A stretch of DNA of 43,736 bases from positions 38,405-82,140 of the forward strand of contig CAYUXQ010000001.1 in the NCBI GenBank assembly GCA_964448925.1, given 5' to 3'. The position numbers were made by a program, and so were the translations under genes. Positions 8,347 to 32,938 of the stretch are shown piece by piece. Under the pieces are notes generated by a model that was not told where the DNA came from, made no database searches, and worked only from the letters and a program-made list of their open reading frames with translations. The stretch is from an uncultured Candidatus Saccharibacteria bacterium. Its GTDB lineage: Bacteria; Patescibacteriota; Saccharimonadia; Saccharimonadales; UBA10212. The number at the start of each line of letters is the position of its first letter. The first letter of the stretch is position 1.

Positions 8347-9445
8347 AGACCCAACATGCCAAGTAGCCTACATAGGGTTGAAAGGCGAAAAAGTTGAAGG
8401 CTTACAAAGTGGCTACAAAGCGTTTGACAGTGTTTGCACTGTCCCCGCCGGTAAGTTTCGCCGTTACCATGGCGAGAGTTTTTTGGCGCATCTAGTAGAC
8501 ATTAAAACCCTGTTGCTTAATGTTCGAGATTTTTTTCGGGTCGTAAGGGGCTTTTTTGTTTCACGCAGATTACTTAAAACAATTCGCCCCCGTGTGGTTT
8601 TTTCTAAAGGTGGCTTTGTGGCGGTCCCAGTTGGTCTGGCTGCCCGCACGCTTGGGATTCCGATTATCACACACGACTCTGATGTTGTGCCGGGTTTGGC
8701 AAATCGACTGCTTAGCAGGTGGGCTGTCTTGCACGCTGTTGGAATGCCAAAGCAATATTATTCTTACTCTGAAAGAAAGATGGTTTTTACCGGAATACCG
8801 CTGAACAAAAATATATCCGTGGTCGATCGATCGGCTAAGCAGGCCTTCAAGAAAGACCTTGGCTTATCGAGTGAGACAAAGGTACTAACTGTCGCTGGCG
8901 GTGGGCTAGGCTCGGTACGGGTAAACAAATTGGTTGCGTCAATTGCGCCAAACTTGCTAAACAGATATAAAAATCTGCGAATTTTTCATTTTTGCGGTGC
9001 TTCAAACCTAGAGCAGACTAAAGCACTCTATGCCGAAAAGCTTGGTGTTGAAGAGGCTAGCAGGCTAGTACTGAAAGGCTTTAGTGACCAATTCTATAAA
9101 TATACTGGTGTAGCCGATGTAGTCATAGCAAGGGCAGGGGCTACAACGATTGCCGAACTGGCTTTGCAAGCTAAGGCATTGGTTGTCATTCCCAGCCCGT
9201 TTTTAACGGGTGCCCACCAGTTAAAAAACGCCGATATGTTAGCCAAAAACCAGGCGGCGGTGGTTTTTTCCGAAGATAAACCAGCGGACGAACTGGAAGC
9301 TGTAGTAGATTCACTCCTAAATTCTCCGGCTAATCGAAAAAGACTAGCGCTATCGCTAGCCAAACTAGCTAAGCCGAACGCGGCTAGTGAACTGGCCGAA
9401 GCTGTTCTAAAAATCGCAGCTAGCAGTACAGAGAATACACAGTGA
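8252..9445 (+). CDS. murG: UDP-GlcNAc:lipid I N-acetylglucosaminyltransferase MurG
   Basis: N-terminal G-loop LTGGGSGGHITP and the ARAGATTIAELA motif; located in the dcw cluster. Confidence 0.9.
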   Translation: MKQNTNTIVLTGGGSGGHITPLLSLAQAIKDKDPTCQVAYIGLKGEKVEGLQSGYKAFDSVCTVPAGKFRRYHGESFLAHLVDIKTLLLNVRDFFRVVRGFFVSRRLLKTIRPRVVFSKGGFVAVPVGLAARTLGIPIITHDSDVVPGLANRLLSRWAVLHAVGMPKQYYSYSERKMVFTGIPLNKNISVVDRSAKQAFKKDLGLSSETKVLTVAGGGLGSVRVNKLVASIAPNLLNRYKNLRIFHFCGASNLEQTKALYAEKLGVEEASRLVLKGFSDQFYKYTGVADVVIARAGATTIAELALQAKALVVIPSPFLTGAHQLKNADMLAKNQAAVVFSEDKPADELEAVVDSLLNSPANRKRLALSLAKLAKPNAASELAEAVLKIAASSTENTQ

Positions 9446-10311
9446 GATTGTTGCAGGGAAAACAACGGGAGCGTAAGTCAATCGCTCGCCAAACTAAACC
9501 ACCTTTGACCAAATATTACCGTTCAGACGGCGCTTCTGATAAACCTAGCCCCTTCAACAAGAGAGTCAAAAAACAATCTCTAAAAAAAATATTGCTCGCC
9601 TCGGCCGACACTCTGGCGATAGTGGCCCTGTTTTTGGTAATAGCCTATAGCTTGGCCGTCAGTGACTCGCCGCTTGTCAAATCGACCAGTAGTGCCTACC
9701 ACAACCAGCAGACCTATCAAGCAGCCGTAAAAAAAGAATTGAGTGGCATAAAAAACCGCAACAAATTTACTTTTGATGAGCAGAAGATTAGTCAAACACT
9801 TAAGCGTCAGTTTCCTGAAATAAGCTCGGTGAGTGTTGAGCTGCCAATTTTTAGCCCAAAACCTACTATTAGACTAACAATCGCAGAGCCAAGCTTTATT
9901 TTAAACAGTGGTAGTCAACTATATATAGTCAGTAGTTCAGGTCGGGCCATTACCAGTGCTAACGGCTTTCCAAACCTTGCATCACTAATAGTAGTAAATG
10001 ATGAAACCGGTTTTCGCTCATCGCTAGGACAGCAGGTTATCAGTAAAGAAGGTGTGGCTTTCCTGGACAACCTCTTAGCCCAGTCAAAAAAGAATAATGT
10101 TCCGATTAGCAACCTAACCCTTCCAGCTAAGGCACAGGAGTTGCATCTGCGAACCTCAGACACTAACTACTTTGTAAAGTTTTTCCTAGATGGTGACTCT
10201 GACACACAGATAGGTCAGTTTCTGGCGGCTAGACACAATTTTGAGGCCAGGGGGGTTAGCCCCAGCGAGTACTTAGATGTTAGAGTTCCTGGAAGGATCT
10301 ATTATAAATAG
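9442..10311 (+). CDS. ftsQ: FtsQ/DivIB-like cell division protein
   Basis: The GTG start overlaps the murG TGA (GTGA). A basic N-terminus and one TM helix are followed by a POTRA-like extracytoplasmic region. The call rests mainly on position. Confidence 0.6.
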   Translation: MRLLQGKQRERKSIARQTKPPLTKYYRSDGASDKPSPFNKRVKKQSLKKILLASADTLAIVALFLVIAYSLAVSDSPLVKSTSSAYHNQQTYQAAVKKELSGIKNRNKFTFDEQKISQTLKRQFPEISSVSVELPIFSPKPTIRLTIAEPSFILNSGSQLYIVSSSGRAITSANGFPNLASLIVVNDETGFRSSLGQQVISKEGVAFLDNLLAQSKKNNVPISNLTLPAKAQELHLRTSDTNYFVKFFLDGDSDTQIGQFLAARHNFEARGVSPSEYLDVRVPGRIYYK

Positions 10312-11011
10312 AGTAGGGTAGTTGAGTGAGCCTGGCTCTTTATGGTTATACTTGCCGTTTAGTCTTCCCGAACAATGTATATTAGAGCAAGTCAGGTCGA
10401 TATATTTATATTGATAGAGACAAAACAATGTCCCCGCTTTCCCCTCCTAGTTCGTAATTTGTTCGACAACTAGAAATACCTCGGAACTTTAAAAAAACAT
10501 ATGTCAATATAGCAAATGTGAAAAGTCAAATTTACGAATAATTGAGCAAAGCAGGGGAAATCATAAAATTATAACGAAAAACGAAAAAGTCTAATATCAT
10601 TGTGGATAAGTATTTCGCTTTTCACATCATTTCACGCCCGTGAGGAGATCATAAGGCCAGCTAAAGGCTGTTTTTGGAAGCAATGAAAGACTAGAAAGCA
10701 GTTATGGTCAAAATAAAGACATATCGACAGTATATCCCCTGTTAGGAAAGTATTGGCCTATAGCTTAACTATTATATATGGCAGACGCAAAATATACATT
10801 GTGCGACATATAATCTTTATGCCTTTCAGTATTCTGCACCGGCTCGTGTACTTAGTTTTTAATGCTCGATTTAGTTTTTTTCTGGATGCCCCCTTTTTTT
10901 ACTTATACTCTAGCCTTTGTTTCAAAAGTAGCGATGAGCTTCTAGCCGAATTGTTAGTTCGCAAAATGTTCTGAACTAGAAGTCTATTGCGAACTCCTTT
11001 TGTCTGTGAAT

Positions 11012-13645
11012 CTAATGTATTTTGACTACTAAGTCATCGACATCTGAGTTCGGTCTGAGCTCTTCAGACGGCTTGATAGGCCGAGGGGTTTGTGTGCCCC
11101 CGCTCTTGCGCCTGCGACGGCGTCTTTTTTTGGGTGTCTGATTATTGTTGCTAGCTATTTGAGTGTCTTTTATAAATGAACTTAAAATGCTAGAGCCAAC
11201 CTTGATAGGATTGGTTGCTTGAGCGGTAGGGGCTTTAGTGACCTGATTAAGTTTAACCTGAGCTTTAGGCCGCAATGGGGCTTGTTGGGCCGGCTGGGGG
11301 CTTCTGGGCGCGTCTACAGCCAAACCGGCGGCTCGTCTGACTATGGCTTCGACTACTGAGCGTTCTTGCGCATATCGGCTGCGAGACAATTCGATTATTT
11401 GAGCAGAGTTGTTCTGGGGAGTTTGTGGCAAGTTGAGTGTTTTAGCCGAAAAAGCCGGTGCTTTTTCGTCACTAATCATCATTGTAGCGACAAAGTACCT
11501 GCTGTGCTGCTGTATTAGGTCGGCAGCCTCAAATTGAGGCGCAAAGTATTTTTCTAGGAGGGGCGCGTCATCGGGGCTAATTCTAAAGCACAAAATAGTG
11601 CCGACATTTCCAAAAACTGCGTCTCTAACAGGTTCGCTCATTTGAGAAATGTACTGGTTCGCTACCGTCAAATTGAGTCCATACTTACGAGCTTCAGATA
11701 AAATTACAGCAAACGAGTCGGTGGCAAAGTTTTGAAATTCATCAACATACAAATAAAATTGTCGGCGTTGCTCCTGGGGTAAATCAGCCCTTCCCATAGC
11801 CGCCAGTTGAATTTTGGTGACCATCATAGCACCTAAAATGCCGGCGTTGTCTTCACCAACTAATCCTCTGGATAAGTTAACGATTAAGATCTTGCCCTGA
11901 TCCATTATTTGGCGGATGTTAAAGGTACTTTTGGGTTGGCCAATGATATTGCGCACCATCGGATTGGCAGTAAATGCACCGACTTTATTAAGTACTGGAG
12001 CAACTGCTTCAGAAGCGAATTTGTCGTTCCAGGAGGCGAATTCTGTTACCCAAAAGTTCTTAACCACTGGATCATCTATATGGTTGATAACACCTTCGCG
12101 AAACTTTTTATCGACTAACATCCGGGTGATGTCAAGCATCGTTGAATTCGGATAGTCCAATAGCGCAAGCAAAGTGTAGCGTAAGATATACTCCAATCTT
12201 GGCCCCCAGCTTTCTGCGAATAATCTTTTTAGCACTCCTACTAGCTCGGAACTAATATGCCCTTTTAGACTAGGGTCTGTAATTTCTAGAGGGTTAAACC
12301 CAATAGGATGGGCGGTATCAGCCGGATTGAAATAAACGACATCGTCTACCCTGCGTTGTGGTATAAAGCTCAAAACAGCCTGTGCATAGTCACCATGTGG
12401 GTCAATGACTGCAAAACCTTGGTCGTAATATATGTCAGATAGTGTCAGAAGCTCCAACGCCCCCGACTTTCCTGTCCCAGTTTGACCGAGAATGTAAATA
12501 TGGCGACCCCTGTCGCGGCGCCAAGCACCAAAGATTGTATTATCTCCCCTAAAATTCGTAACTCCAAAAAGACTTATTTCGCCTTCTTTCCCGACCTCAG
12601 CTATTGGAGTATTGGGTGGTGGTTCAGCTGTTTTGGTGGTTGCCCACAAAATATTAGGTGTTTCGACAGAGGTATGCGGTAAGTGGAACAAGCTGGCGAG
12701 TTCTTCAATATTCAGAATATAACCGCTATCAATAAAATGTCTGGCAGTAAATTCACTCTGCTTGTCTCTCGAATAACTGTATGCTTTTGCTTCAAAACCG
12801 TTTAGATTGGTGGTATTAAATTGTTTAAAAGCACCAACAGGTGCTTGCATTCGCAGGCGTGCTGTATGCTGGTCGTGGCCGGCATACAGAATGCGGATTT
12901 TAACCTGATACCCCAATTTAGTTGATTTTTCTTCTATCCCGCTAATACGGGATTTGTCTCGTTCTGACAGTTCAGTGGTCTTGGTACCTTCACCACCCGG
13001 TCCGGCTTCAGGTGGCTTTGACAAGGCTCCAAAAACTTGTGCTGCATAGGACAGCGTAGCGCCCCCAACGCCGTTCCCAAATAACCCGCTGCCGGATTTA
13101 ATCCGTGTCACCATTCGCGTGCCTTTGCGGTGCCAATCGTCTGATACAGGCCGGGCTATCATCTGGATCCACATTTCTTCGTCTTCCTTGTCGAGTTTGG
13201 CAAGGGTGGCGGTGATTGCCGCTAAGGGGTCTACTTCAAAACTCGGGAAAGTCTTAATAGGCAATGTCTCGTGGTCGCTAAGAACTAGCTCGCAGGTGTG
13301 TAGCACGGTTTGATGCAAAGTGCGGTCTGCATAATCTTCAGATTGCTCGAATATTTGAGCGGTCGGGTATTGAGCATAAACTTGCCCTTCCACGAAAGCC
13401 TTAAGGTGTTTTGGCGTCCAAATAAAAAATCGTATTCGTTGACCGATAGCAGCTATTTCGAGACTGATGTGTTCTTGGAGCGTACCGGACGATTTAATTT
13501 CTTTCTTAGTTCGTAGTATGCCATGTAGGGCGGCAAGCATCTGTTCAGCGGAAAGTTCTTTTTTGTCATTAGTCCGCGGTACTTCTAACATAAGCAAACA
13601 ATGCTCATGCGCCGTTTTCGTTGTTTTTGGTCCAAGTATTCCCAT
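11012..13645 (-). CDS. TraD/VirD4/HerA-like P-loop ATPase (T4SS coupling-protein-like) with an uncharacterised N-terminal domain
   Basis: Walker A (GQTGTGKSG) and Walker B-like (FYLYVDEFQNF) motifs are present. About 380 aa at the N-terminus have no motif I recognise. The C-terminal tail is Pro/Gln-rich and contains KKRRRRRRK. Confidence 0.75.
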   Translation of the reverse strand: MGILGPKTTKTAHEHCLLMLEVPRTNDKKELSAEQMLAALHGILRTKKEIKSSGTLQEHISLEIAAIGQRIRFFIWTPKHLKAFVEGQVYAQYPTAQIFEQSEDYADRTLHQTVLHTCELVLSDHETLPIKTFPSFEVDPLAAITATLAKLDKEDEEMWIQMIARPVSDDWHRKGTRMVTRIKSGSGLFGNGVGGATLSYAAQVFGALSKPPEAGPGGEGTKTTELSERDKSRISGIEEKSTKLGYQVKIRILYAGHDQHTARLRMQAPVGAFKQFNTTNLNGFEAKAYSYSRDKQSEFTARHFIDSGYILNIEELASLFHLPHTSVETPNILWATTKTAEPPPNTPIAEVGKEGEISLFGVTNFRGDNTIFGAWRRDRGRHIYILGQTGTGKSGALELLTLSDIYYDQGFAVIDPHGDYAQAVLSFIPQRRVDDVVYFNPADTAHPIGFNPLEITDPSLKGHISSELVGVLKRLFAESWGPRLEYILRYTLLALLDYPNSTMLDITRMLVDKKFREGVINHIDDPVVKNFWVTEFASWNDKFASEAVAPVLNKVGAFTANPMVRNIIGQPKSTFNIRQIMDQGKILIVNLSRGLVGEDNAGILGAMMVTKIQLAAMGRADLPQEQRRQFYLYVDEFQNFATDSFAVILSEARKYGLNLTVANQYISQMSEPVRDAVFGNVGTILCFRISPDDAPLLEKYFAPQFEAADLIQQHSRYFVATMMISDEKAPAFSAKTLNLPQTPQNNSAQIIELSRSRYAQERSVVEAIVRRAAGLAVDAPRSPQPAQQAPLRPKAQVKLNQVTKAPTAQATNPIKVGSSILSSFIKDTQIASNNNQTPKKRRRRRRKSGGTQTPRPIKPSEELRPNSDVDDLVVKIH

Positions 13646-30401: not shown

Positions 30402-30488
30402 GCCGCGGTGGTGGAATTGGTAGACACGCTGGACTCAAAATCCTGTGAACGCAAGTTCGTGACGGTTCAAGTCCGTCCCGCGGCACCA
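30402..30488 (+). tRNA. tRNA-Leu (anticodon CAA), CCA encoded
   Basis: GCCGCGG/CCGCGGC acceptor stem, anticodon loop CTCAAAA, long variable arm, T-loop GGTTCAAGTCC and a terminal ACCA. Confidence 0.9.
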
Positions 30489-30594
30489 TCGACATGTGTG
30501 TTCAATCCTGTCTACCGTCAGGCAGGCCCACTCCACCCACCAAGCATCTAATCCATATCAGCCACTAATCAAAAATTGGAACCAAGTACTCTTT

Positions 30595-31437
30595 ATGCCC
30601 CAAGAACAGAAAGAACTTATCGCAACTTACTACGACCAAACTCTGAAGCTTTACGAAAGATTTTGGCACAAAAAAACCTACGGTGTACACTATGGTTTTT
30701 GGGATGATAGTACAAAAAATTTAGAGCAAGCTTTAATAAATGAAAATCAGTTCATGGCTGATCTTTTAGGGCTTAGCAAGGGCATGAAAGTTTTAGATGC
30801 CGGTTGCGGCGTAGGAGGTAGCTCTGTGTGGCTAGCCAAAAACTATGGCGTAGAAGTGAAAGGGATATCTTTAAGCAACAGACAAGTAAAAAAAGCAAAA
30901 GTGATAGCAAAGCAAGCGGGTGTGTCACACCTAACAAGTTTCGAAGTAAACGACTATTTAAAAACAAACTACTCTGCTAGAAGTTTTGACATAGTTTGGG
31001 CTGAAGAGAGTGTATGCTACGCGGAGAACAAGCAGGATTTCCTAAAAGAAGCCTACAGGCTTCTAAAGCCCGCGGGTAAACTAGTCGTAGCCGATGGGTT
31101 CTTGCTACGAAATGTAAGGGACAATGAGAAGAAGGATTTTAATACCTTTCTTGAGGGTCTAGCTCTCTCCAATCTCGCGTCAGTTGATAGCTTTAAGAAA
31201 AATATGCAAACAGCCGGTTTTAAAAAGGTAAAAATGCATGATGCCACTAAGGCCGTAGAGCCTTCTTCTGCTCTGATGTACAAGCGCGTTAGAAAGTTCT
31301 ACCCACTTGCTTGGTTTCAGCACAAAATTGGGTTAATATCTTCAGTATTATTAAACAACCAAAAAGCAGGGCTAGCTCAATACAGACTGGTTAAAAAAGG
31401 TATAGCCGGATATGCGGTCTTTACTGGAGAGAAATAA
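30595..31437 (+). CDS. Class I SAM-dependent methyltransferase (gamma-tocopherol/SDMT/sterol-C-MT-like branch)
   Basis: N-terminal YYDQTLKLYERFW..HYGFWD block and motif I VLDAGCGVGG. ATG 30595 is preferred, because the ORF-track start at 30496 abuts the tRNA. Confidence 0.8.
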   Translation: MPQEQKELIATYYDQTLKLYERFWHKKTYGVHYGFWDDSTKNLEQALINENQFMADLLGLSKGMKVLDAGCGVGGSSVWLAKNYGVEVKGISLSNRQVKKAKVIAKQAGVSHLTSFEVNDYLKTNYSARSFDIVWAEESVCYAENKQDFLKEAYRLLKPAGKLVVADGFLLRNVRDNEKKDFNTFLEGLALSNLASVDSFKKNMQTAGFKKVKMHDATKAVEPSSALMYKRVRKFYPLAWFQHKIGLISSVLLNNQKAGLAQYRLVKKGIAGYAVFTGEK

Positions 31438-31460
31438 AAAAATAAACCACACAAAATAGC

Positions 31461-31781
31461 ATGGAACAACTAGATTATATAAAGTGGTTTGCGGTCTTTG
31501 CTTGGACACCAATAATAATCGTCTGGGCATTTTATTGGAGGTACTTAATAAAGTTCTCCAAGGTGTTTTTGTATTGCATAATCGGTTCAGTTATTTTCGG
31601 GACGGTATGGGACTACTGGGCTACACACTACTGGTTGTGGCACTTCTCACCTGACCACACCTTAGGTGTTAATATTTTAGGTCTTCCTGTTGAAGAGTAT
31701 GTATTTTTTATCTCATTCACTATCTTGTATGCCAGTATCGCGCTTGTGCTTAAGGATAAGATGAGAATTAAAAAATTATGA
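31461..31781 (+). CDS. Lycopene-cyclase-domain membrane protein (CrtYc-like subunit)
   Basis: About 106 aa with three hydrophobic helices. The W-D-Y-W..W-H-F..LGLPVEEYVFF segment matches the PxEE-FF signature of the lycopene cyclase domain. Confidence 0.6.
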   Translation: MEQLDYIKWFAVFAWTPIIIVWAFYWRYLIKFSKVFLYCIIGSVIFGTVWDYWATHYWLWHFSPDHTLGVNILGLPVEEYVFFISFTILYASIALVLKDKMRIKKL

Positions 31782-32095
31782 GGTGGGCCTACCTAGTCAG
31801 CAATTTTATACCGATCTTGATTGCTTTTATACTAATTTGGCGAAAGGGTTTGCCAAGCAAGCGTACTTGGTATTTGCTAGCTATCTTAGGGACGCTAGGA
31901 CTTATCAATGCCCTTGGCGAAAACCCTGCTCTGCATTGGGGTATCTGGCATTATAATCTCCCTAAAACCTTAGATATTCAGATATTTGGTGTGCTTTTTG
32001 AGACATATGTTTACTGCATTATGGTTCCGATCGTTATAGGTTCAGCCGCACTTAAGTTTGCAGAGAGACAAAATGCCAAAAAGTCTAAAAAATAG
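31778..32095 (+). CDS. Lycopene-cyclase-domain-like membrane protein (CrtYd-like, degenerate motif)
   Basis: ATGA start/stop overlap with the preceding gene and the same size and topology. The WGIWHY..FGVLFETYVY segment aligns to the partner signature but keeps only one Glu. Confidence 0.5.
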   Translation: MRWAYLVSNFIPILIAFILIWRKGLPSKRTWYLLAILGTLGLINALGENPALHWGIWHYNLPKTLDIQIFGVLFETYVYCIMVPIVIGSAALKFAERQNAKKSKK

Positions 32096-32100
32096 CAACA

Positions 32101-32108
32101 AAAAAAAG
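32101..32108 (+). other. A7G run containing an A AAA AAG heptamer (candidate -1 frameshift or homopolymer indel site)
   Basis: In the frame of ATG 32073 the codons read A AAA AAG. A -1 slip lands exactly in the methyltransferase frame at GAT 32108. Confidence 0.3.
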
Positions 32109-32239
32109 ATGTAGAAAACTATTATTTCCGTCGTGAGTCGCGCTGGGGGTATAAGTATCTTTTAAAAGGTACCAAGCACTATAGCTACCACCCTAAAGGT
32201 GTCGTAGGTGGGCTAACTCTGGCAGAATCCCAGTTAGAG

Positions 32240-32938
32240 ATGGAAAAACAACTAGCAATTCGAATCGGGCAGAAGCACGGCGCGCGAATACTGGATGCTG
32301 GATGTGGCGAGGCGTTAGTAGCAATCCGTTTAGCAAAGGAGAAACCCTGGATAATTTATGGGATTGATTTGCTCAAACCATATGTGGATATAGCCAAGAA
32401 AAACGTGTCAAAAGCTGGTCTTGAAGGTAAGGTTATAGTTGAGGTTGGTGATTACACTCATTTGGACTTCCCAGACAATTACTTTAATGCCGTATACACA
32501 GTCGAGACATTAGTGCACTCACCTGACTATAAAAGAACACTAAGAGAATTCTATAGGGTTCTTAAGCCTGGCGGTGTGCTAGTTAACTTTGAGTACGCTC
32601 TTGAGGATGATATGACCCCCGAGCAAGAAGAGCCTTGGCGACATATATACGAGAATGGTGCGATGATGGGTGTATTTAAAGACTTTAGGATAAAGAGAAT
32701 GCAACAAATATGGGATCGGGCTGGGTTTGTAGATGTGAGAGTCGATGGTGTGACTAAAAACGTAGCTCCGTTTATGAAACGTCTCTATCAGATTGCATTT
32801 GTGCCTTTCCATATCCTAAAACTATTCGGTAAAGAAAAAAACTACACAAATACCTATGTAGGCTATATTTCTTTTGGGCTCCGCGACCAGTTTCAGTATT
32901 CTCTTATAAGTGCGGTCAAACCGAGTAGTCGTAAATAG
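32240..32938 (+). CDS. Class I SAM-dependent methyltransferase, paralogue of 30595..31437 (N-terminus unresolved)
   Basis: Motif I is ILDAGCGEA. Homology to the first methyltransferase (VENYYFRRESRWGY..HYSYHP) continues upstream in frame to 32096 with no ATG/GTG/TTG. The conservative start is ATG 32240. Confidence 0.75.
   Translation: MEKQLAIRIGQKHGARILDAGCGEALVAIRLAKEKPWIIYGIDLLKPYVDIAKKNVSKAGLEGKVIVEVGDYTHLDFPDNYFNAVYTVETLVHSPDYKRTLREFYRVLKPGGVLVNFEYALEDDMTPEQEEPWRHIYENGAMMGVFKDFRIKRMQQIWDRAGFVDVRVDGVTKNVAPFMKRLYQIAFVPFHILKLFGKEKNYTNTYVGYISFGLRDQFQYSLISAVKPSSRK

What the first reader, a model, noticed from the sequence alone, without database searches (positions are those of the whole stretch)
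30402..32938. tRNA-Leu-adjacent methyltransferase / split lycopene-cyclase-domain / methyltransferase cassette with no carotenoid context
Four tightly packed co-directional genes sit directly 3' of tRNA-Leu(CAA). The first is a class I SAM methyltransferase of the gamma-tocopherol/SDMT/sterol-C-MT/GPP-C-MT-like branch (YYD..ERFW..HYGFW plus VLDAGCGVGG). The next two are ~105-aa three-helix membrane proteins coupled by an ATGA overlap. The first of these carries the lycopene-cyclase-domain signature (LGLPVEEYVFF) and the second a degenerate version (GVLFETYVY), as in a heterodimeric CrtYc/CrtYd arrangement. The fourth gene is a paralogous methyltransferase. No phytoene synthase, desaturase or prenyltransferase is in the window, and reduced CPR genomes generally lack carotenoid pathways, so the canonical substrate is not evident. 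Both enzyme classes act on lipid C=C bonds (proton-initiated cyclisation; SAM-dependent C-methylation, as in methyltransferase plus terpene-cyclase pairs). This suggests an olefinic lipid or terpenoid tailoring module, possibly acting on host-derived lipid. By eye the cassette is AT-richer than the flanks, and it sits at a tRNA gene, which is compatible with horizontal acquisition.
Basis: partly seen in the sequence, partly recalled or inferred. Interest (0 to 1): 0.75.

Follow-up and report, generated by a model that had tools for sequence, protein, structure and literature searches.

The report
Orphan lycopene-cyclase pair with coupled methyltransferase
A group of Saccharibacteria, tiny bacteria that live attached to other bacteria, carries a conserved three-gene operon: a two-subunit membrane enzyme of the carotenoid-cyclase type plus a methyltransferase, with no carotenoid-synthesis genes seen within about 10-30 kb, so it may modify an isoprenoid lipid taken from the host, though this is untested.

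Summary
tRNA-Leu(CAA) is followed by a class I SAM methyltransferase (MT1). Next come two ~105-aa three-helix proteins of the lycopene-cyclase (CarR/CrtYc-CrtYd) domain family joined by an ATGA overlap, then a second methyltransferase (MT2).

1. The conserved unit is three genes, not four. cycA-cycB-MT2 recurs in at least four different neighbourhoods in Saccharibacteria. MT2's start overlaps or abuts the cycB stop, and all three genes are under purifying selection. MT1 is seen only in this strain, inserted between the tRNA and the cycA leader. Its family is widespread in CPR and DPANN genomes and is not linked to cyclase genes in the two other loci I examined.
2. MT2 is frameshifted in this strain. 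Its ancestral ATG (32073) is separated from the conserved body (from 32108) by a -1 shift in an A8 tract, identical in five read-set assemblies. MT2 also departs at 9 of 58 columns that are invariant in its closest homologues.
3. Evidence for recent horizontal acquisition is weak. GC is low, but GC3 is ordinary, no att repeat is present, and a 62-64%-identical relative has the same tRNA and flanks.

Function is unproven. Most likely the pair is a proton-initiated cyclase acting on the terminal isoprene unit of a lipid made elsewhere, with methylation by the coupled enzyme. I rate it a new variant of a known kind, of moderate interest.

The parts
30402..30488 (+). tRNA-Leu(CAA). It marks the 5' boundary of the locus. 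The same tRNA precedes cycA in relatives L006/L007.
   Evidence: ARAGORN; Rfam RF00005, 56.5 bits.
30595..31437 (+). MT1, a 280-aa class I SAM methyltransferase of the RebM/MitM/AtmM/TleD/PEAMT/SDMT structural branch. It is a strain-specific insertion between the tRNA and the cycA leader.
   Evidence: Pfam and NCBIfam hits fall below every equivalog cut-off. Nearest PDB sequence is 3bus RebM at 1.2e-26. The gene is absent from the same position in L006/L007. The family has 1442 homologues across CPR and DPANN.
31438..31460 (+). A-rich cycA leader, conserved with L006 (AAAT(A/G)AAAAA(A)TAAAC).
   Evidence: DNA alignment.
31461..31781 (+). cycA, a 106-aa lycopene-cyclase-domain subunit. The low-confidence model predicts three helices. 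Motifs are VWDYWATH and GLPVEEY.
   Evidence: PF18916 40.5 bits and TIGR03462 48.4 bits, both above cut-off. AF2 model shows 3 helices at pLDDT 66.5. Purifying selection.
31778..32095 (+). cycB, a 105-aa divergent lycopene-cyclase-domain subunit overlapping cycA by ATGA. Within its clade it has invariant E48 and E75-T76-Y77.
   Evidence: hhalign 98.1% probability against the cycA family. All 7 orthologues hit PF18916. Alignment A5. Purifying selection.
32073..32108 (+). Ancestral MT2 start. ATG 32073 overlaps the cycB 3' end by 23 nt, as in relatives. It is followed by 12 codons (MPKSLKNSNKKK) in a frame that ends at TAG 32112-32114.
   Evidence: Three-frame translation of the junction compared with L006, L009, L011 and L018.
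32100..32107 (+). A8 homopolymer containing the frameshift. An A9 tract would restore the frame. A_AAA_AAG lies at 32102-32108.
   Evidence: Identical A8 in five Logan assemblies of separate sequencing runs, accessions SRR166424xx and SRR277102xx. No frameshift in any relative. No significant downstream structure.
32108..32938 (+). MT2 body, 276 codons, a class I SAM methyltransferase. The conserved N-terminal lid (residues 1-44, DVENYYFRRESRWGYKYLLKGTKHYSYHP...) lies upstream of the first in-frame ATG at 32240. The reading frame is the same as cycB across a single TAG.
   Evidence: Translation. Homologues of 274-290 aa at up to 55% identity. AF2 model pLDDT 95.9. Foldseek top hits are AtmM, RebM, TleD, SpnF and MitM. 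Deviations from conserved columns.

Best explanation
The locus carries a conserved three-gene operon of one subgroup of Candidatus Saccharibacteria.

Proposed parts (inferred):
- CycA and CycB are predicted three-helix membrane proteins of the CarR/CrtYc-CrtYd lycopene-cyclase domain family. By analogy with CrtYc/CrtYd they should form a heterodimer in the membrane.
- CycA keeps the canonical acidic PxEE motif. CycB keeps one invariant Glu there (ETY) and a second invariant Glu in place of CycA's WD aspartate.

Proposed mechanism (inferred):
- As in all characterised members of the family, the pair most likely protonates the terminal C=C of an isoprenoid chain and closes a six-membered ring.
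- MT2 is a soluble RebM/TleD-like class I SAM methyltransferase whose start codon overlaps or abuts the cycB stop. It most likely methylates the same lipid or its cyclised product.
- No phytoene synthase, desaturase or prenyltransferase accompanies the operon in any neighbourhood seen. The substrate is therefore made elsewhere. The most plausible source is a carotenoid, or another polyprenyl lipid, obtained from the actinobacterial host membrane.

State in this strain (shown):
- MT2 carries a 1-nt frameshift in an A8 tract and has diverged unusually fast.
- A second methyltransferase (MT1), from a family common in CPR and DPANN genomes, has been inserted upstream of cycA.
- MT2 may be decaying, or expressed only at low level by slippage. 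MT1 may be substituting for it (inferred).

Shown versus inferred: gene identities, operon conservation, coupling, purifying selection, the frameshift and the absence of carotenoid context are shown. Heterodimer formation, cyclase chemistry, the substrate and its host origin are inferred.
For: Domain membership:
- cycA passes the curated cut-offs.
- cycB is homologous to the family over its full length.

Operon conservation:
- cycA-cycB-MT2 occurs in the window, L006/L007, L009, L011, L018, L070 and the 730-kb JGI contig carrying P0163.
- These represent at least four different flanking contexts.
- The MT2 start overlaps the cycB stop by 11-29 nt, or follows it by 1 nt, in every relative.
- Every MT2 homologue whose context was examined at 46% identity or more is cyc-linked. 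The three examined at about 40% identity are not.

Selection:
- pN is 0.22-0.39 against saturated pS of 0.71-0.97 for all three genes.

Context contrast:
- Distant cyc genes in non-CPR organisms sit beside phytoene synthase/Caroten_synth (L025), Blh (L016) or UbiA prenyltransferase (L013, and by eye L028).
- The Saccharibacteria, Nomurabacteria and Woesearchaeota loci examined have none of these.
- The 43.7-kb window holds only housekeeping genes.

MT2 fold:
- The model is high confidence (pLDDT 95.9). Its nearest structures include the terpenoid C-methyltransferase TleD as well as sugar O-methyltransferases and N-methyltransferases.

Frameshift and divergence:
-.

Host dependence:
- A published paper proposes that rhodopsin-bearing Saccharibacteria rely on host-derived isoprenoid products. 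They lack blh, and the authors propose that retinal comes from Actinobacteria (PMC9296517).
Against: - No biochemical data exist for any member of this clade.
- The rest of the genome could not be searched, so a carotenoid pathway elsewhere is not excluded.
- The methyltransferase fold family includes O-, N- and C-methyltransferases. No equivalog model is reached, so the methyl acceptor is open.
- I know of no precedent for a SAM methyltransferase coupled to a CrtYc/d-type cyclase (own knowledge; literature searches found none).
- cycB lacks the canonical PxEE motif.
- The heterodimer could not be modelled, and the cycA model is of low confidence.
- In this particular strain the operon may be partly non-functional because of the MT2 frameshift.
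Confidence: 0.45

Rival explanations
1. This is an ordinary carotenoid or retinal pathway step. CycA/CycB is a plain lycopene beta-cyclase. Its substrate is made by crt genes elsewhere in the same genome. MT2 is an unrelated neighbour or a late carotenoid-tailoring enzyme.
For: - All characterised CarR-domain proteins are carotenoid cyclases (family definition of TIGR03462/PF18916).
- Relatives in Microbacteriaceae sit next to Blh, and others sit next to phytoene synthase.
- Some Saccharibacteria have rhodopsins (PMC9296517).
Against: - No crt, blh or rhodopsin gene is present in the 43.7-kb window or within the up to 10 kb of flank retrieved for any triad locus.
- Saccharibacteria are described as lacking retinal synthesis.
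- The tight cycB-MT2 overlap across different neighbourhoods argues that MT2 is part of the function.
Confidence: 0.15
2. The module acts on a non-carotenoid isoprenoid. The candidate is the omega-end of undecaprenyl phosphate, or a polyprenyl quinone scavenged from the host. The product would be a cyclised and/or methylated tail.
For: - The only isoprenoid users evident in the window are undecaprenyl-phosphate enzymes: MraY, MurG, FtsW, GT2 and a GtrA-like protein.
- Terminal isoprene units of polyprenyl chains share the 1,5-diene that the cyclase attacks (established chemistry).
- Lycopene-cyclase-domain pairs occur among housekeeping genes in other CPR and DPANN genomes.
Against: - I know of no precedent for cyclised bactoprenol (own knowledge).
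- No quinone-using enzyme is seen in the window.
- The idea is not distinguishable from the carotenoid reading with sequence data alone.
Confidence: 0.2
3. In this strain the locus is a decaying remnant. MT2 is a pseudogene and the cassette no longer performs its ancestral function. MT1 is an unrelated insertion.
For: - The A8 frameshift removes the conserved 44-residue N-terminal lid from any product starting at ATG 32240.
- MT2 shows 9 of 58 invariant columns changed, including G69A in SAM motif I and D127N. Its homologues show 0-3.
- Its mean identity to the clade is the lowest of all members.
- MT1 homologues elsewhere neighbour NUDIX genes, not cyc genes.
Against: - cycA is as conserved as in any relative, deviating at only 1 of 35 invariant columns, and cycB is intact.
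- The 276-codon MT2 body has no further stop or frameshift.
- The same allele is present in assemblies of five separate sequencing runs.
- Slippage on A_AAA_AAG or the A8 tract, or TAG read-through from cycB, could still give some full-length product.
Confidence: 0.2

Closest known systems
Heterodimeric lycopene beta-cyclase CrtYc/CrtYd of Actinobacteria and Myxococcus, and the fused CrtY of Halobacterium (CarR domain superfamily, TIGR03462 / PF18916)
   Same: - Two adjacent genes of about 100 aa, each encoding one lycopene-cyclase domain with three predicted helices.
- The stop and start codons overlap.
- The acidic PxEE motif is present in the first subunit.
   Different: - No crtE, crtB or crtI, Blh, or elongase is nearby, unlike the non-CPR relatives.
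- The second subunit carries ETY instead of PxEE.
- A class I SAM methyltransferase is translationally coupled to the pair.
- The host organism is a reduced episymbiont.
- Identity to the nearest relatives outside the clade is only 35-41%.
C50 carotenoid cyclases CrtYe/CrtYf and LbtBC (same domain family)
   Same: They are heterodimers of small subunits that act on a terminal isoprene unit other than the plain lycopene psi-end (own knowledge of the family).
   Different: Those enzymes sit beside a UbiA-type lycopene elongase (compare L013). No UbiA gene is present here.
TleD / geranyl-diphosphate 2-C-methyltransferase / sterol C-24 methyltransferase type C-methyltransferases acting on isoprenoid C=C bonds
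   Same: - The class I fold and the N-terminal aromatic-rich lid are shared.
- TleD is among the top structural matches to MT2.
- JGI labels several MT2 homologues 'sterol 24-C-methyltransferase'.
   Different: - Sugar O-methyltransferases (AtmM, RebM) and N-methyltransferases (MitM, PEAMT, SDMT) match equally well or better.
- GPP-methyltransferase NCBIfam scores are 68.5 bits (MT1) and 44.1 bits (the L009 MT2 orthologue) against a cut-off of 400.
- No Sterol_MT_C domain was reported.
Frameshifts at poly(A) tracts partly rescued by polymerase or ribosome slippage (the dnaX A_AAA_AAG site; endosymbiont poly(A) tracts)
   Same: The heptamer A_AAA_AAG lies in the zero frame, inside an A8 run, exactly where the frames must switch.
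   Different: - No stimulatory structure is supported (z = 0.07).
- The frameshift is not conserved in any relative.
- It therefore looks like a recent mutation rather than a programmed site.

Membership tests
CarR / CrtYc-CrtYd lycopene cyclase domain family (TIGR03462, PF18916) | The domain HMM is matched above the curated cut-off. | tested here: met
   cycA scores 48.4 bits against a cut-off of 39.4 (TIGR03462) and 40.5 bits against 27 (PF18916). cycB falls just below (24.8 and 26.6 bits). It is nevertheless homologous by hhalign at 98.1% probability, and all 7 orthologues hit PF18916.
CarR / CrtYc-CrtYd lycopene cyclase domain family (TIGR03462, PF18916) | Two domains are present per enzyme, either as adjacent small genes or fused. 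| tested here: met
   cycA and cycB are adjacent with an ATGA overlap. The arrangement is conserved in 7 loci.
CarR / CrtYc-CrtYd lycopene cyclase domain family (TIGR03462, PF18916) | The conserved acidic PxE(E/D) motif is present in each domain. | tested here: inconclusive
   cycA has GLPVEEY. cycB has (L/F)ETY, with P and the second E replaced. However, E75 and a second Glu (E48) are invariant within the clade.
CarR / CrtYc-CrtYd lycopene cyclase domain family (TIGR03462, PF18916) | The genes lie in a carotenoid biosynthetic context (crtE/B/I, Blh or elongase). | tested here: not met
   None is present in the 43.7-kb window or within the up to 10 kb of flank retrieved around any triad locus. 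The whole genome could not be searched.
CarR / CrtYc-CrtYd lycopene cyclase domain family (TIGR03462, PF18916) | The enzyme cyclises the lycopene psi-end. | not testable with these tools
   This needs heterologous expression in a lycopene-producing host.
Named methyltransferase equivalogs (SDMT, GPP 2-C-MT, CFA synthase, UbiE/MenG, gamma-TMT-like) | The NCBIfam equivalog cut-off is reached. | tested here: not met
   MT1's best score is 92.6 bits against 550 (SDMT). MT2's best is 55.2 bits against 158 (UbiE/MenG subfamily). All other models fall far below cut-off.
RebM/AtmM/TleD/MitM structural clade of class I methyltransferases | The fold includes the N-terminal lid, with TM-score above 0.7 to clade members. 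| tested here: met
   The MT2 model has pLDDT 95.9. Foldseek gives AtmM at 2e-24 (TMq 0.75-0.82), RebM, TleD, SpnF and MitM. MT1 belongs by sequence, with 3bus at 1.2e-26.
Programmed -1 ribosomal frameshift (dnaX type) | A slippery heptamer is present in the zero frame. | tested here: met
   A_AAA_AAG lies at 32102-32108 in the frame of ATG 32073.
Programmed -1 ribosomal frameshift (dnaX type) | The site has a stimulatory downstream structure and is conserved among relatives. | tested here: not met
   The folding z-score is 0.07. All relatives encode MT2 in a single frame.
tRNA-linked genomic island | An integrase, a direct repeat of the tRNA 3' end, and foreign codon-level composition are present. 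| tested here: not met
   - No integrase is present in the window.
- No att-like repeat is found.
- GC3 of the four genes is 0.40-0.46, against a window mean of 0.439 +/- 0.044.
- The tRNA-triad arrangement is syntenic in L006.

The most novel reading that the evidence does not exclude
Saccharibacteria may use a membrane cyclase-methyltransferase complex (CycA/CycB/MT2) to remodel isoprenoid lipids that they cannot make and must take from their actinobacterial hosts. Two examples would be converting host acyclic carotenoids into cyclic or methylated forms (possibly feeding retinal supply for rhodopsins), or modifying polyprenyl tails. Coupling a SAM methyltransferase to a CrtYc/d-type cyclase would be a terpenoid-tailoring chemistry not described before. 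Paralogue expansion in related genomes (an extra fused cyclase in L070, extra pairs in L024 and L012) would reflect several substrates or ring types.
Probability: 0.15. Interest if true: 0.8.

Novelty: new variant of a known kind. Interest (0 to 1): 0.5.

Why it matters
CPR bacteria such as Saccharibacteria are thought to depend on hosts for lipids. Almost nothing is known about whether they chemically modify what they import.

This operon pairs a carotenoid-type cyclase with a methyltransferase, is conserved and under selection, and has no precursor pathway in view. It is therefore a concrete, clonable candidate for such modification.

It also bears on an open question: where rhodopsin-bearing Saccharibacteria get retinal or its precursors.

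If the operon turns out to be ordinary carotenoid cyclisation, with crt genes elsewhere in the genome, the interest falls to that of a routine annotation.

Tried and rejected
- cycA alone: the model reached only pLDDT 66.5, so no fold search was run on it.
- PDB: a profile search found no solved relative of the cyclase domain.
- Locus scanning: the wide alignment A1 was too diverse for scanning, so the close alignment A2 was used instead.
- Viral contigs: no relative was found.
- Literature: no paper was found on lycopene-cyclase domains in Saccharibacteria, CPR or Patescibacteria, and none on a cyclase-methyltransferase pairing. The sample accessions could not be traced to a habitat.
- Regulatory RNA: Rfam found only the tRNA, with no riboswitch.
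- Programmed frameshifting: rejected as the preferred reading. There is no significant downstream structure and no conservation in relatives.
- tRNA-island reading: rejected. There is no att repeat, GC3 is ordinary and synteny is conserved.
- Actinobacterial crtYc-crtYd-methyltransferase cluster (L058) as ancestor: considered, but its methyltransferase is UbiE/MenG-like and only weakly related to MT2.
- Catalytic-residue comparison to separate O-, N- and C-methylation: considered and dropped. From my recollection of reference sequences, the E...H motif of MT2 is shared by all three kinds.
- L069: the apparent absence of a cycA gene call is not a real difference. The DNA differs from the window by a single mismatch in 15,975 nt, and none was found in the cassette.


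Full report
**1. What is there**

The window reads as a Saccharibacteria (TM7) chromosome segment.
- It carries the dcw genes (mraW, ftsI, mraY, ftsW, murG), a T4SS coupling-protein-like gene, topA, dprA, pth, der, a two-component system, gltX, a PEGA protein and a sortase.
- Downstream of the cassette lie a HAD hydrolase, an Exo_endo_phos (PF03372) family nuclease/phosphatase, smpB and GT2 glycosyltransferases.
- The closest named relatives of the cyclase gene are 'uncultured Candidatus Saccharibacteria' MAGs.

| Feature | Coordinates | Key evidence |
|---|---|---|
| tRNA-Leu(CAA) | 30402-30488 | |
| MT1, 280 aa | 30595-31437 | class I SAM methyltransferase with the quoted motifs |
| cycA, 106 aa | 31461-31781 | PF18916 40.5 bits, TIGR03462 48.4 bits, both above cut-off |
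| cycB, 105 aa | 31778-32095 | ATGA overlap with cycA; 0.4 bits (PF18916) and 14.6 bits (TIGR03462) under the curated cut-offs |
| MT2 | 32240-32938 as an ORF | second methyltransferase |

cycB is firmly homologous to the family despite the borderline scores. BLASTP against cycA gives 1e-11. hhalign of its orthologue alignment against the cycA family gives 98.1% probability over the full length. All 7 orthologues hit PF18916.

MT1 and MT2 share 29% identity over 190 residues.

**2. The conserved unit is three genes, not four**

Word-indexed protein search found only nine close cycA homologues (59-100% identity). Their contigs, together with those of MT2 homologues, show cycA-cycB-MT2 in this order in:
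- the window strain (L001-L005, L068, L069);
- L006/L007/L023;
- L009/L010;
- L011;
- L018;
- L070;
- a 730-kb JGI contig.

The flanks differ between loci:

| Flanking context | Loci |
|---|---|
| sortase and tRNA-Leu on one side, a 270-aa protein, HAD, Exo_endo_phos and smpB on the other | window, L006 (L007 truncated; L018 and L070 show only the downstream side because the contig ends) |
| tyrS | L009 |
| ABC transporter | L011 |
| DUF1761/META and rhodanese | P0163 contig |

The MT2 start lies 1 nt after the cycB stop (L006) or overlaps it by 11-29 nt (L009, L011, L018, L070).

Among MT2 homologues whose context I could see, all at 46% identity or more are cyc-linked. The three at about 40% identity (P0184, P0186, P0188) are not.

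All three genes are under purifying selection. pN is 0.22-0.39, against saturated pS of 0.71-0.97.

MT1 is present only in the window strain.
- In L006 the tRNA is followed after 64 nt directly by cycA.
- The A-rich leader just upstream of cycA is conserved between the two genomes, so MT1 sits as an insertion between the tRNA and that leader.
- MT1's family is large: 1442 hits at E <= 1e-10, at about 50% identity in many CPR phyla, in DPANN archaea, and in Psychroflexus and Nostoc.
- In two other CPR genomes it lies within one to three genes of a NUDIX hydrolase, not near cyclase genes.

**3. MT2 is frameshifted in this strain**

The open frame of MT2 extends upstream of ATG 32240 to the cycB stop codon and is in the same frame as cycB. 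That upstream stretch (DVENYYFRRESRWGYKYLLKGTKHYSYHP...) aligns with the conserved N-terminus of every homologue, all of which are 274-290 aa.

The start codon equivalent to that of the relatives is ATG 32073, overlapping the cycB end by 23 nt. It is in another frame, which terminates after MPKSLKNSNKKKKM. The two frames meet in the A8 run at 32100-32107.
- One more A would give MPKSLKNSNKKKDVENYY..., colinear with MFNKNKKDIEKYY... of L011.
- The A8 allele is identical in five Logan assemblies of separate runs (accessions SRR166424xx and SRR277102xx). It is therefore not an assembly error.

The run contains A_AAA_AAG in the zero frame, so some ribosomal or transcriptional slippage is conceivable. 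However, there is no significant downstream structure (z = 0.07) and no relative shares the frameshift. I read it as a recent mutation.

A product starting at ATG 32240 would lack residues 1-44 of the modelled protein. That is the N-terminal lid, which carries three invariant and five of the nearly invariant family residues.

MT2 here also departs at 9 of the 58 columns invariant among its 16 closest homologues, including G69A in SAM motif I and D127N. Each homologue departs at 0-3 in leave-one-out tests. The window's cycA departs at only 1 of 35 invariant columns, like its relatives.

So MT2, but not the cyclase, shows relaxed or altered constraint in the one strain that has acquired MT1. This fits decay of MT2, possibly with MT1 taking over. 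That last step is inference.

**4. Horizontal acquisition**

The cassette is the lowest-GC and most tetranucleotide-deviant 2.3-kb stretch of the window (GC 0.407 vs 0.451, z = -2.5). However, the GC3 of its four genes (0.399, 0.458, 0.415, 0.408) lies within the window's 0.439 +/- 0.044. The deficit is in codon positions 1 and 2, so it reflects amino-acid composition.

There is no repeat of the tRNA 3' end, no integrase in the window, and no viral relative. The tRNA-triad arrangement with the same flanks exists in a genome whose proteins are only 62-64% identical.

The triad has clearly moved among neighbourhoods during Saccharibacteria evolution. The tRNA adjacency here is old, not a mark of recent insertion. 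Only MT1 looks like a recent arrival.

**5. What it most likely does**

The profile search over 1.84 billion representatives gave 422 relatives of cycA. The best are only 35-41% identical, and many are fused two-domain proteins of 240-340 aa.

In the loci I could read, non-CPR relatives have the canonical context:

| Locus | Organism or source | Neighbour of the cyclase gene |
|---|---|---|
| L025 | metagenome contig | phytoene synthase and Caroten_synth |
| L016 | Microbacteriaceae | Blh (beta-carotene 15,15'-dioxygenase) |
| L013 | Thermoplasmatota | UbiA prenyltransferase |
| L028 | metagenome contig | UbiA-like gene (assigned by eye, not HMM-tested) |
| L058 | high-GC (actinobacterium-like) contig | Nudix/Idi-like ORF (by eye) and a UbiE-like methyltransferase |

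The CPR and DPANN loci have none of these. L012 (Saccharibacteria) lies between pgk and eno. L014 (Woesearchaeota) lies after gatC and gatA, with gatB about 1.7 kb downstream. L017 is from Nomurabacteria.

Every characterised member of the domain family is a proton-initiated cyclase of a terminal isoprene unit. In this clade cycA keeps WD and PxEE. cycB keeps two invariant glutamates at the corresponding positions, E48 and E75.

The best-supported mechanism is therefore a membrane heterodimer that cyclises the end of an isoprenoid chain supplied from outside the locus. MT2 would methylate the same molecule.

The MT2 model is confident (pLDDT 95.9). Its nearest structures are AtmM and RebM (sugar O-methyltransferases), TleD (a terpenoid C-methyltransferase), SpnF, MitM, SDMT and PEAMT. 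No equivalog threshold is met. The fold therefore does not say whether O, N or C is methylated.

The identity of the substrate cannot be decided here. Candidates are a host carotenoid, a polyprenyl quinone or a polyprenyl phosphate. Published work shows that rhodopsin-bearing Saccharibacteria lack blh and proposes that they draw retinal from Actinobacteria (PMC9296517). This makes host-derived isoprenoids a reasonable source. No rhodopsin is present in this window.

**6. Comparison with known systems, and novelty**

The pair belongs to the CarR/CrtYc-CrtYd domain family by HMM and architecture. It fails the contextual criterion (no carotenoid genes nearby), and its second subunit lacks the canonical motif. 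Lycopene cyclase activity is untested.

I found no description of this domain family in CPR bacteria, nor of a cyclase-methyltransferase operon.

I rate it a new variant of a known kind. The interest is moderate and rests on the conserved, selected, orphan cyclase-methyltransferase coupling in a lipid-scavenging symbiont. It is limited by the lack of any functional evidence and by the unsearched remainder of the genome.

Noticed in passing
L070:1814-2551 (Logan SRR28232388): In a relative with the same downstream synteny as the window (HAD, Exo_endo_phos, smpB), cycA-cycB-MT2 is followed by an extra fused two-domain lycopene-cyclase gene of 245 aa. This accessory gene occupies the same locus, on the opposite side of the triad from where the window has MT1.
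   Followed up: partly
L024:1-1300; L012:4895-6619: Paralogue expansion is visible in two loci. L024 has a second cyc-like pair directly upstream of cycA-cycB. The Saccharibacteria MAG locus L012 has three CarR-domain genes plus two small membrane ORFs between pgk and eno, with no methyltransferase.
   Followed up: partly
L058:5-2341: A high-GC, actinobacterium-like soil contig carries a Nudix/Idi-like ORF (judged by eye), a crtYc-like gene, a crtYd-like gene and a UbiE/MenG-like methyltransferase in a row. This is a cyclase-methyltransferase adjacency in a likely host phylum, but the methyltransferase is from a different clade.
   Followed up: partly
L064:5001-6608; L066:4460-6357: MT1-family genes in two other CPR genomes lie within one to three genes of a NUDIX hydrolase. 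In one case an NTPase_I-T gene is also adjacent. This hints at a small-molecule or nucleotide-related role for that family rather than a lipid role.
   Followed up: no
window:31778-32938: Because of the 1-nt deletion, cycB and the MT2 body share one reading frame, separated only by TAG 32093-32095. Read-through would yield a 386-aa membrane-anchored CycB-MT2 fusion. In relatives the two genes are in different frames.
   Followed up: partly
window:32916-33728 (-): A conserved 270-aa protein with no Pfam hit converges on MT2 and overlaps its 3' end by 23 nt. It is syntenic in L006, L018 and L070, at 257-275 aa.
   Followed up: no
window:9301-11011: This is the second most deviant tetranucleotide region of the window, with a GC minimum of 0.392 at 10001-11000. 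It includes a 289-aa ORF with no Pfam hit (9442-10311) and about 700 nt with no ORF of 150 aa or more. It lies just before an 877-aa T4SS coupling-protein-like gene (11012-13645, - strand).
   Followed up: no
L017:2382-3620: In the Nomurabacteria locus, a 412-aa ORF lies about 2 kb from the fused lycopene-cyclase-domain gene. By eye its N-terminal GGGFGG dinucleotide-binding motif resembles a type II NADH dehydrogenase or pyridine-nucleotide disulfide oxidoreductase. It was not checked by HMM.
   Followed up: no
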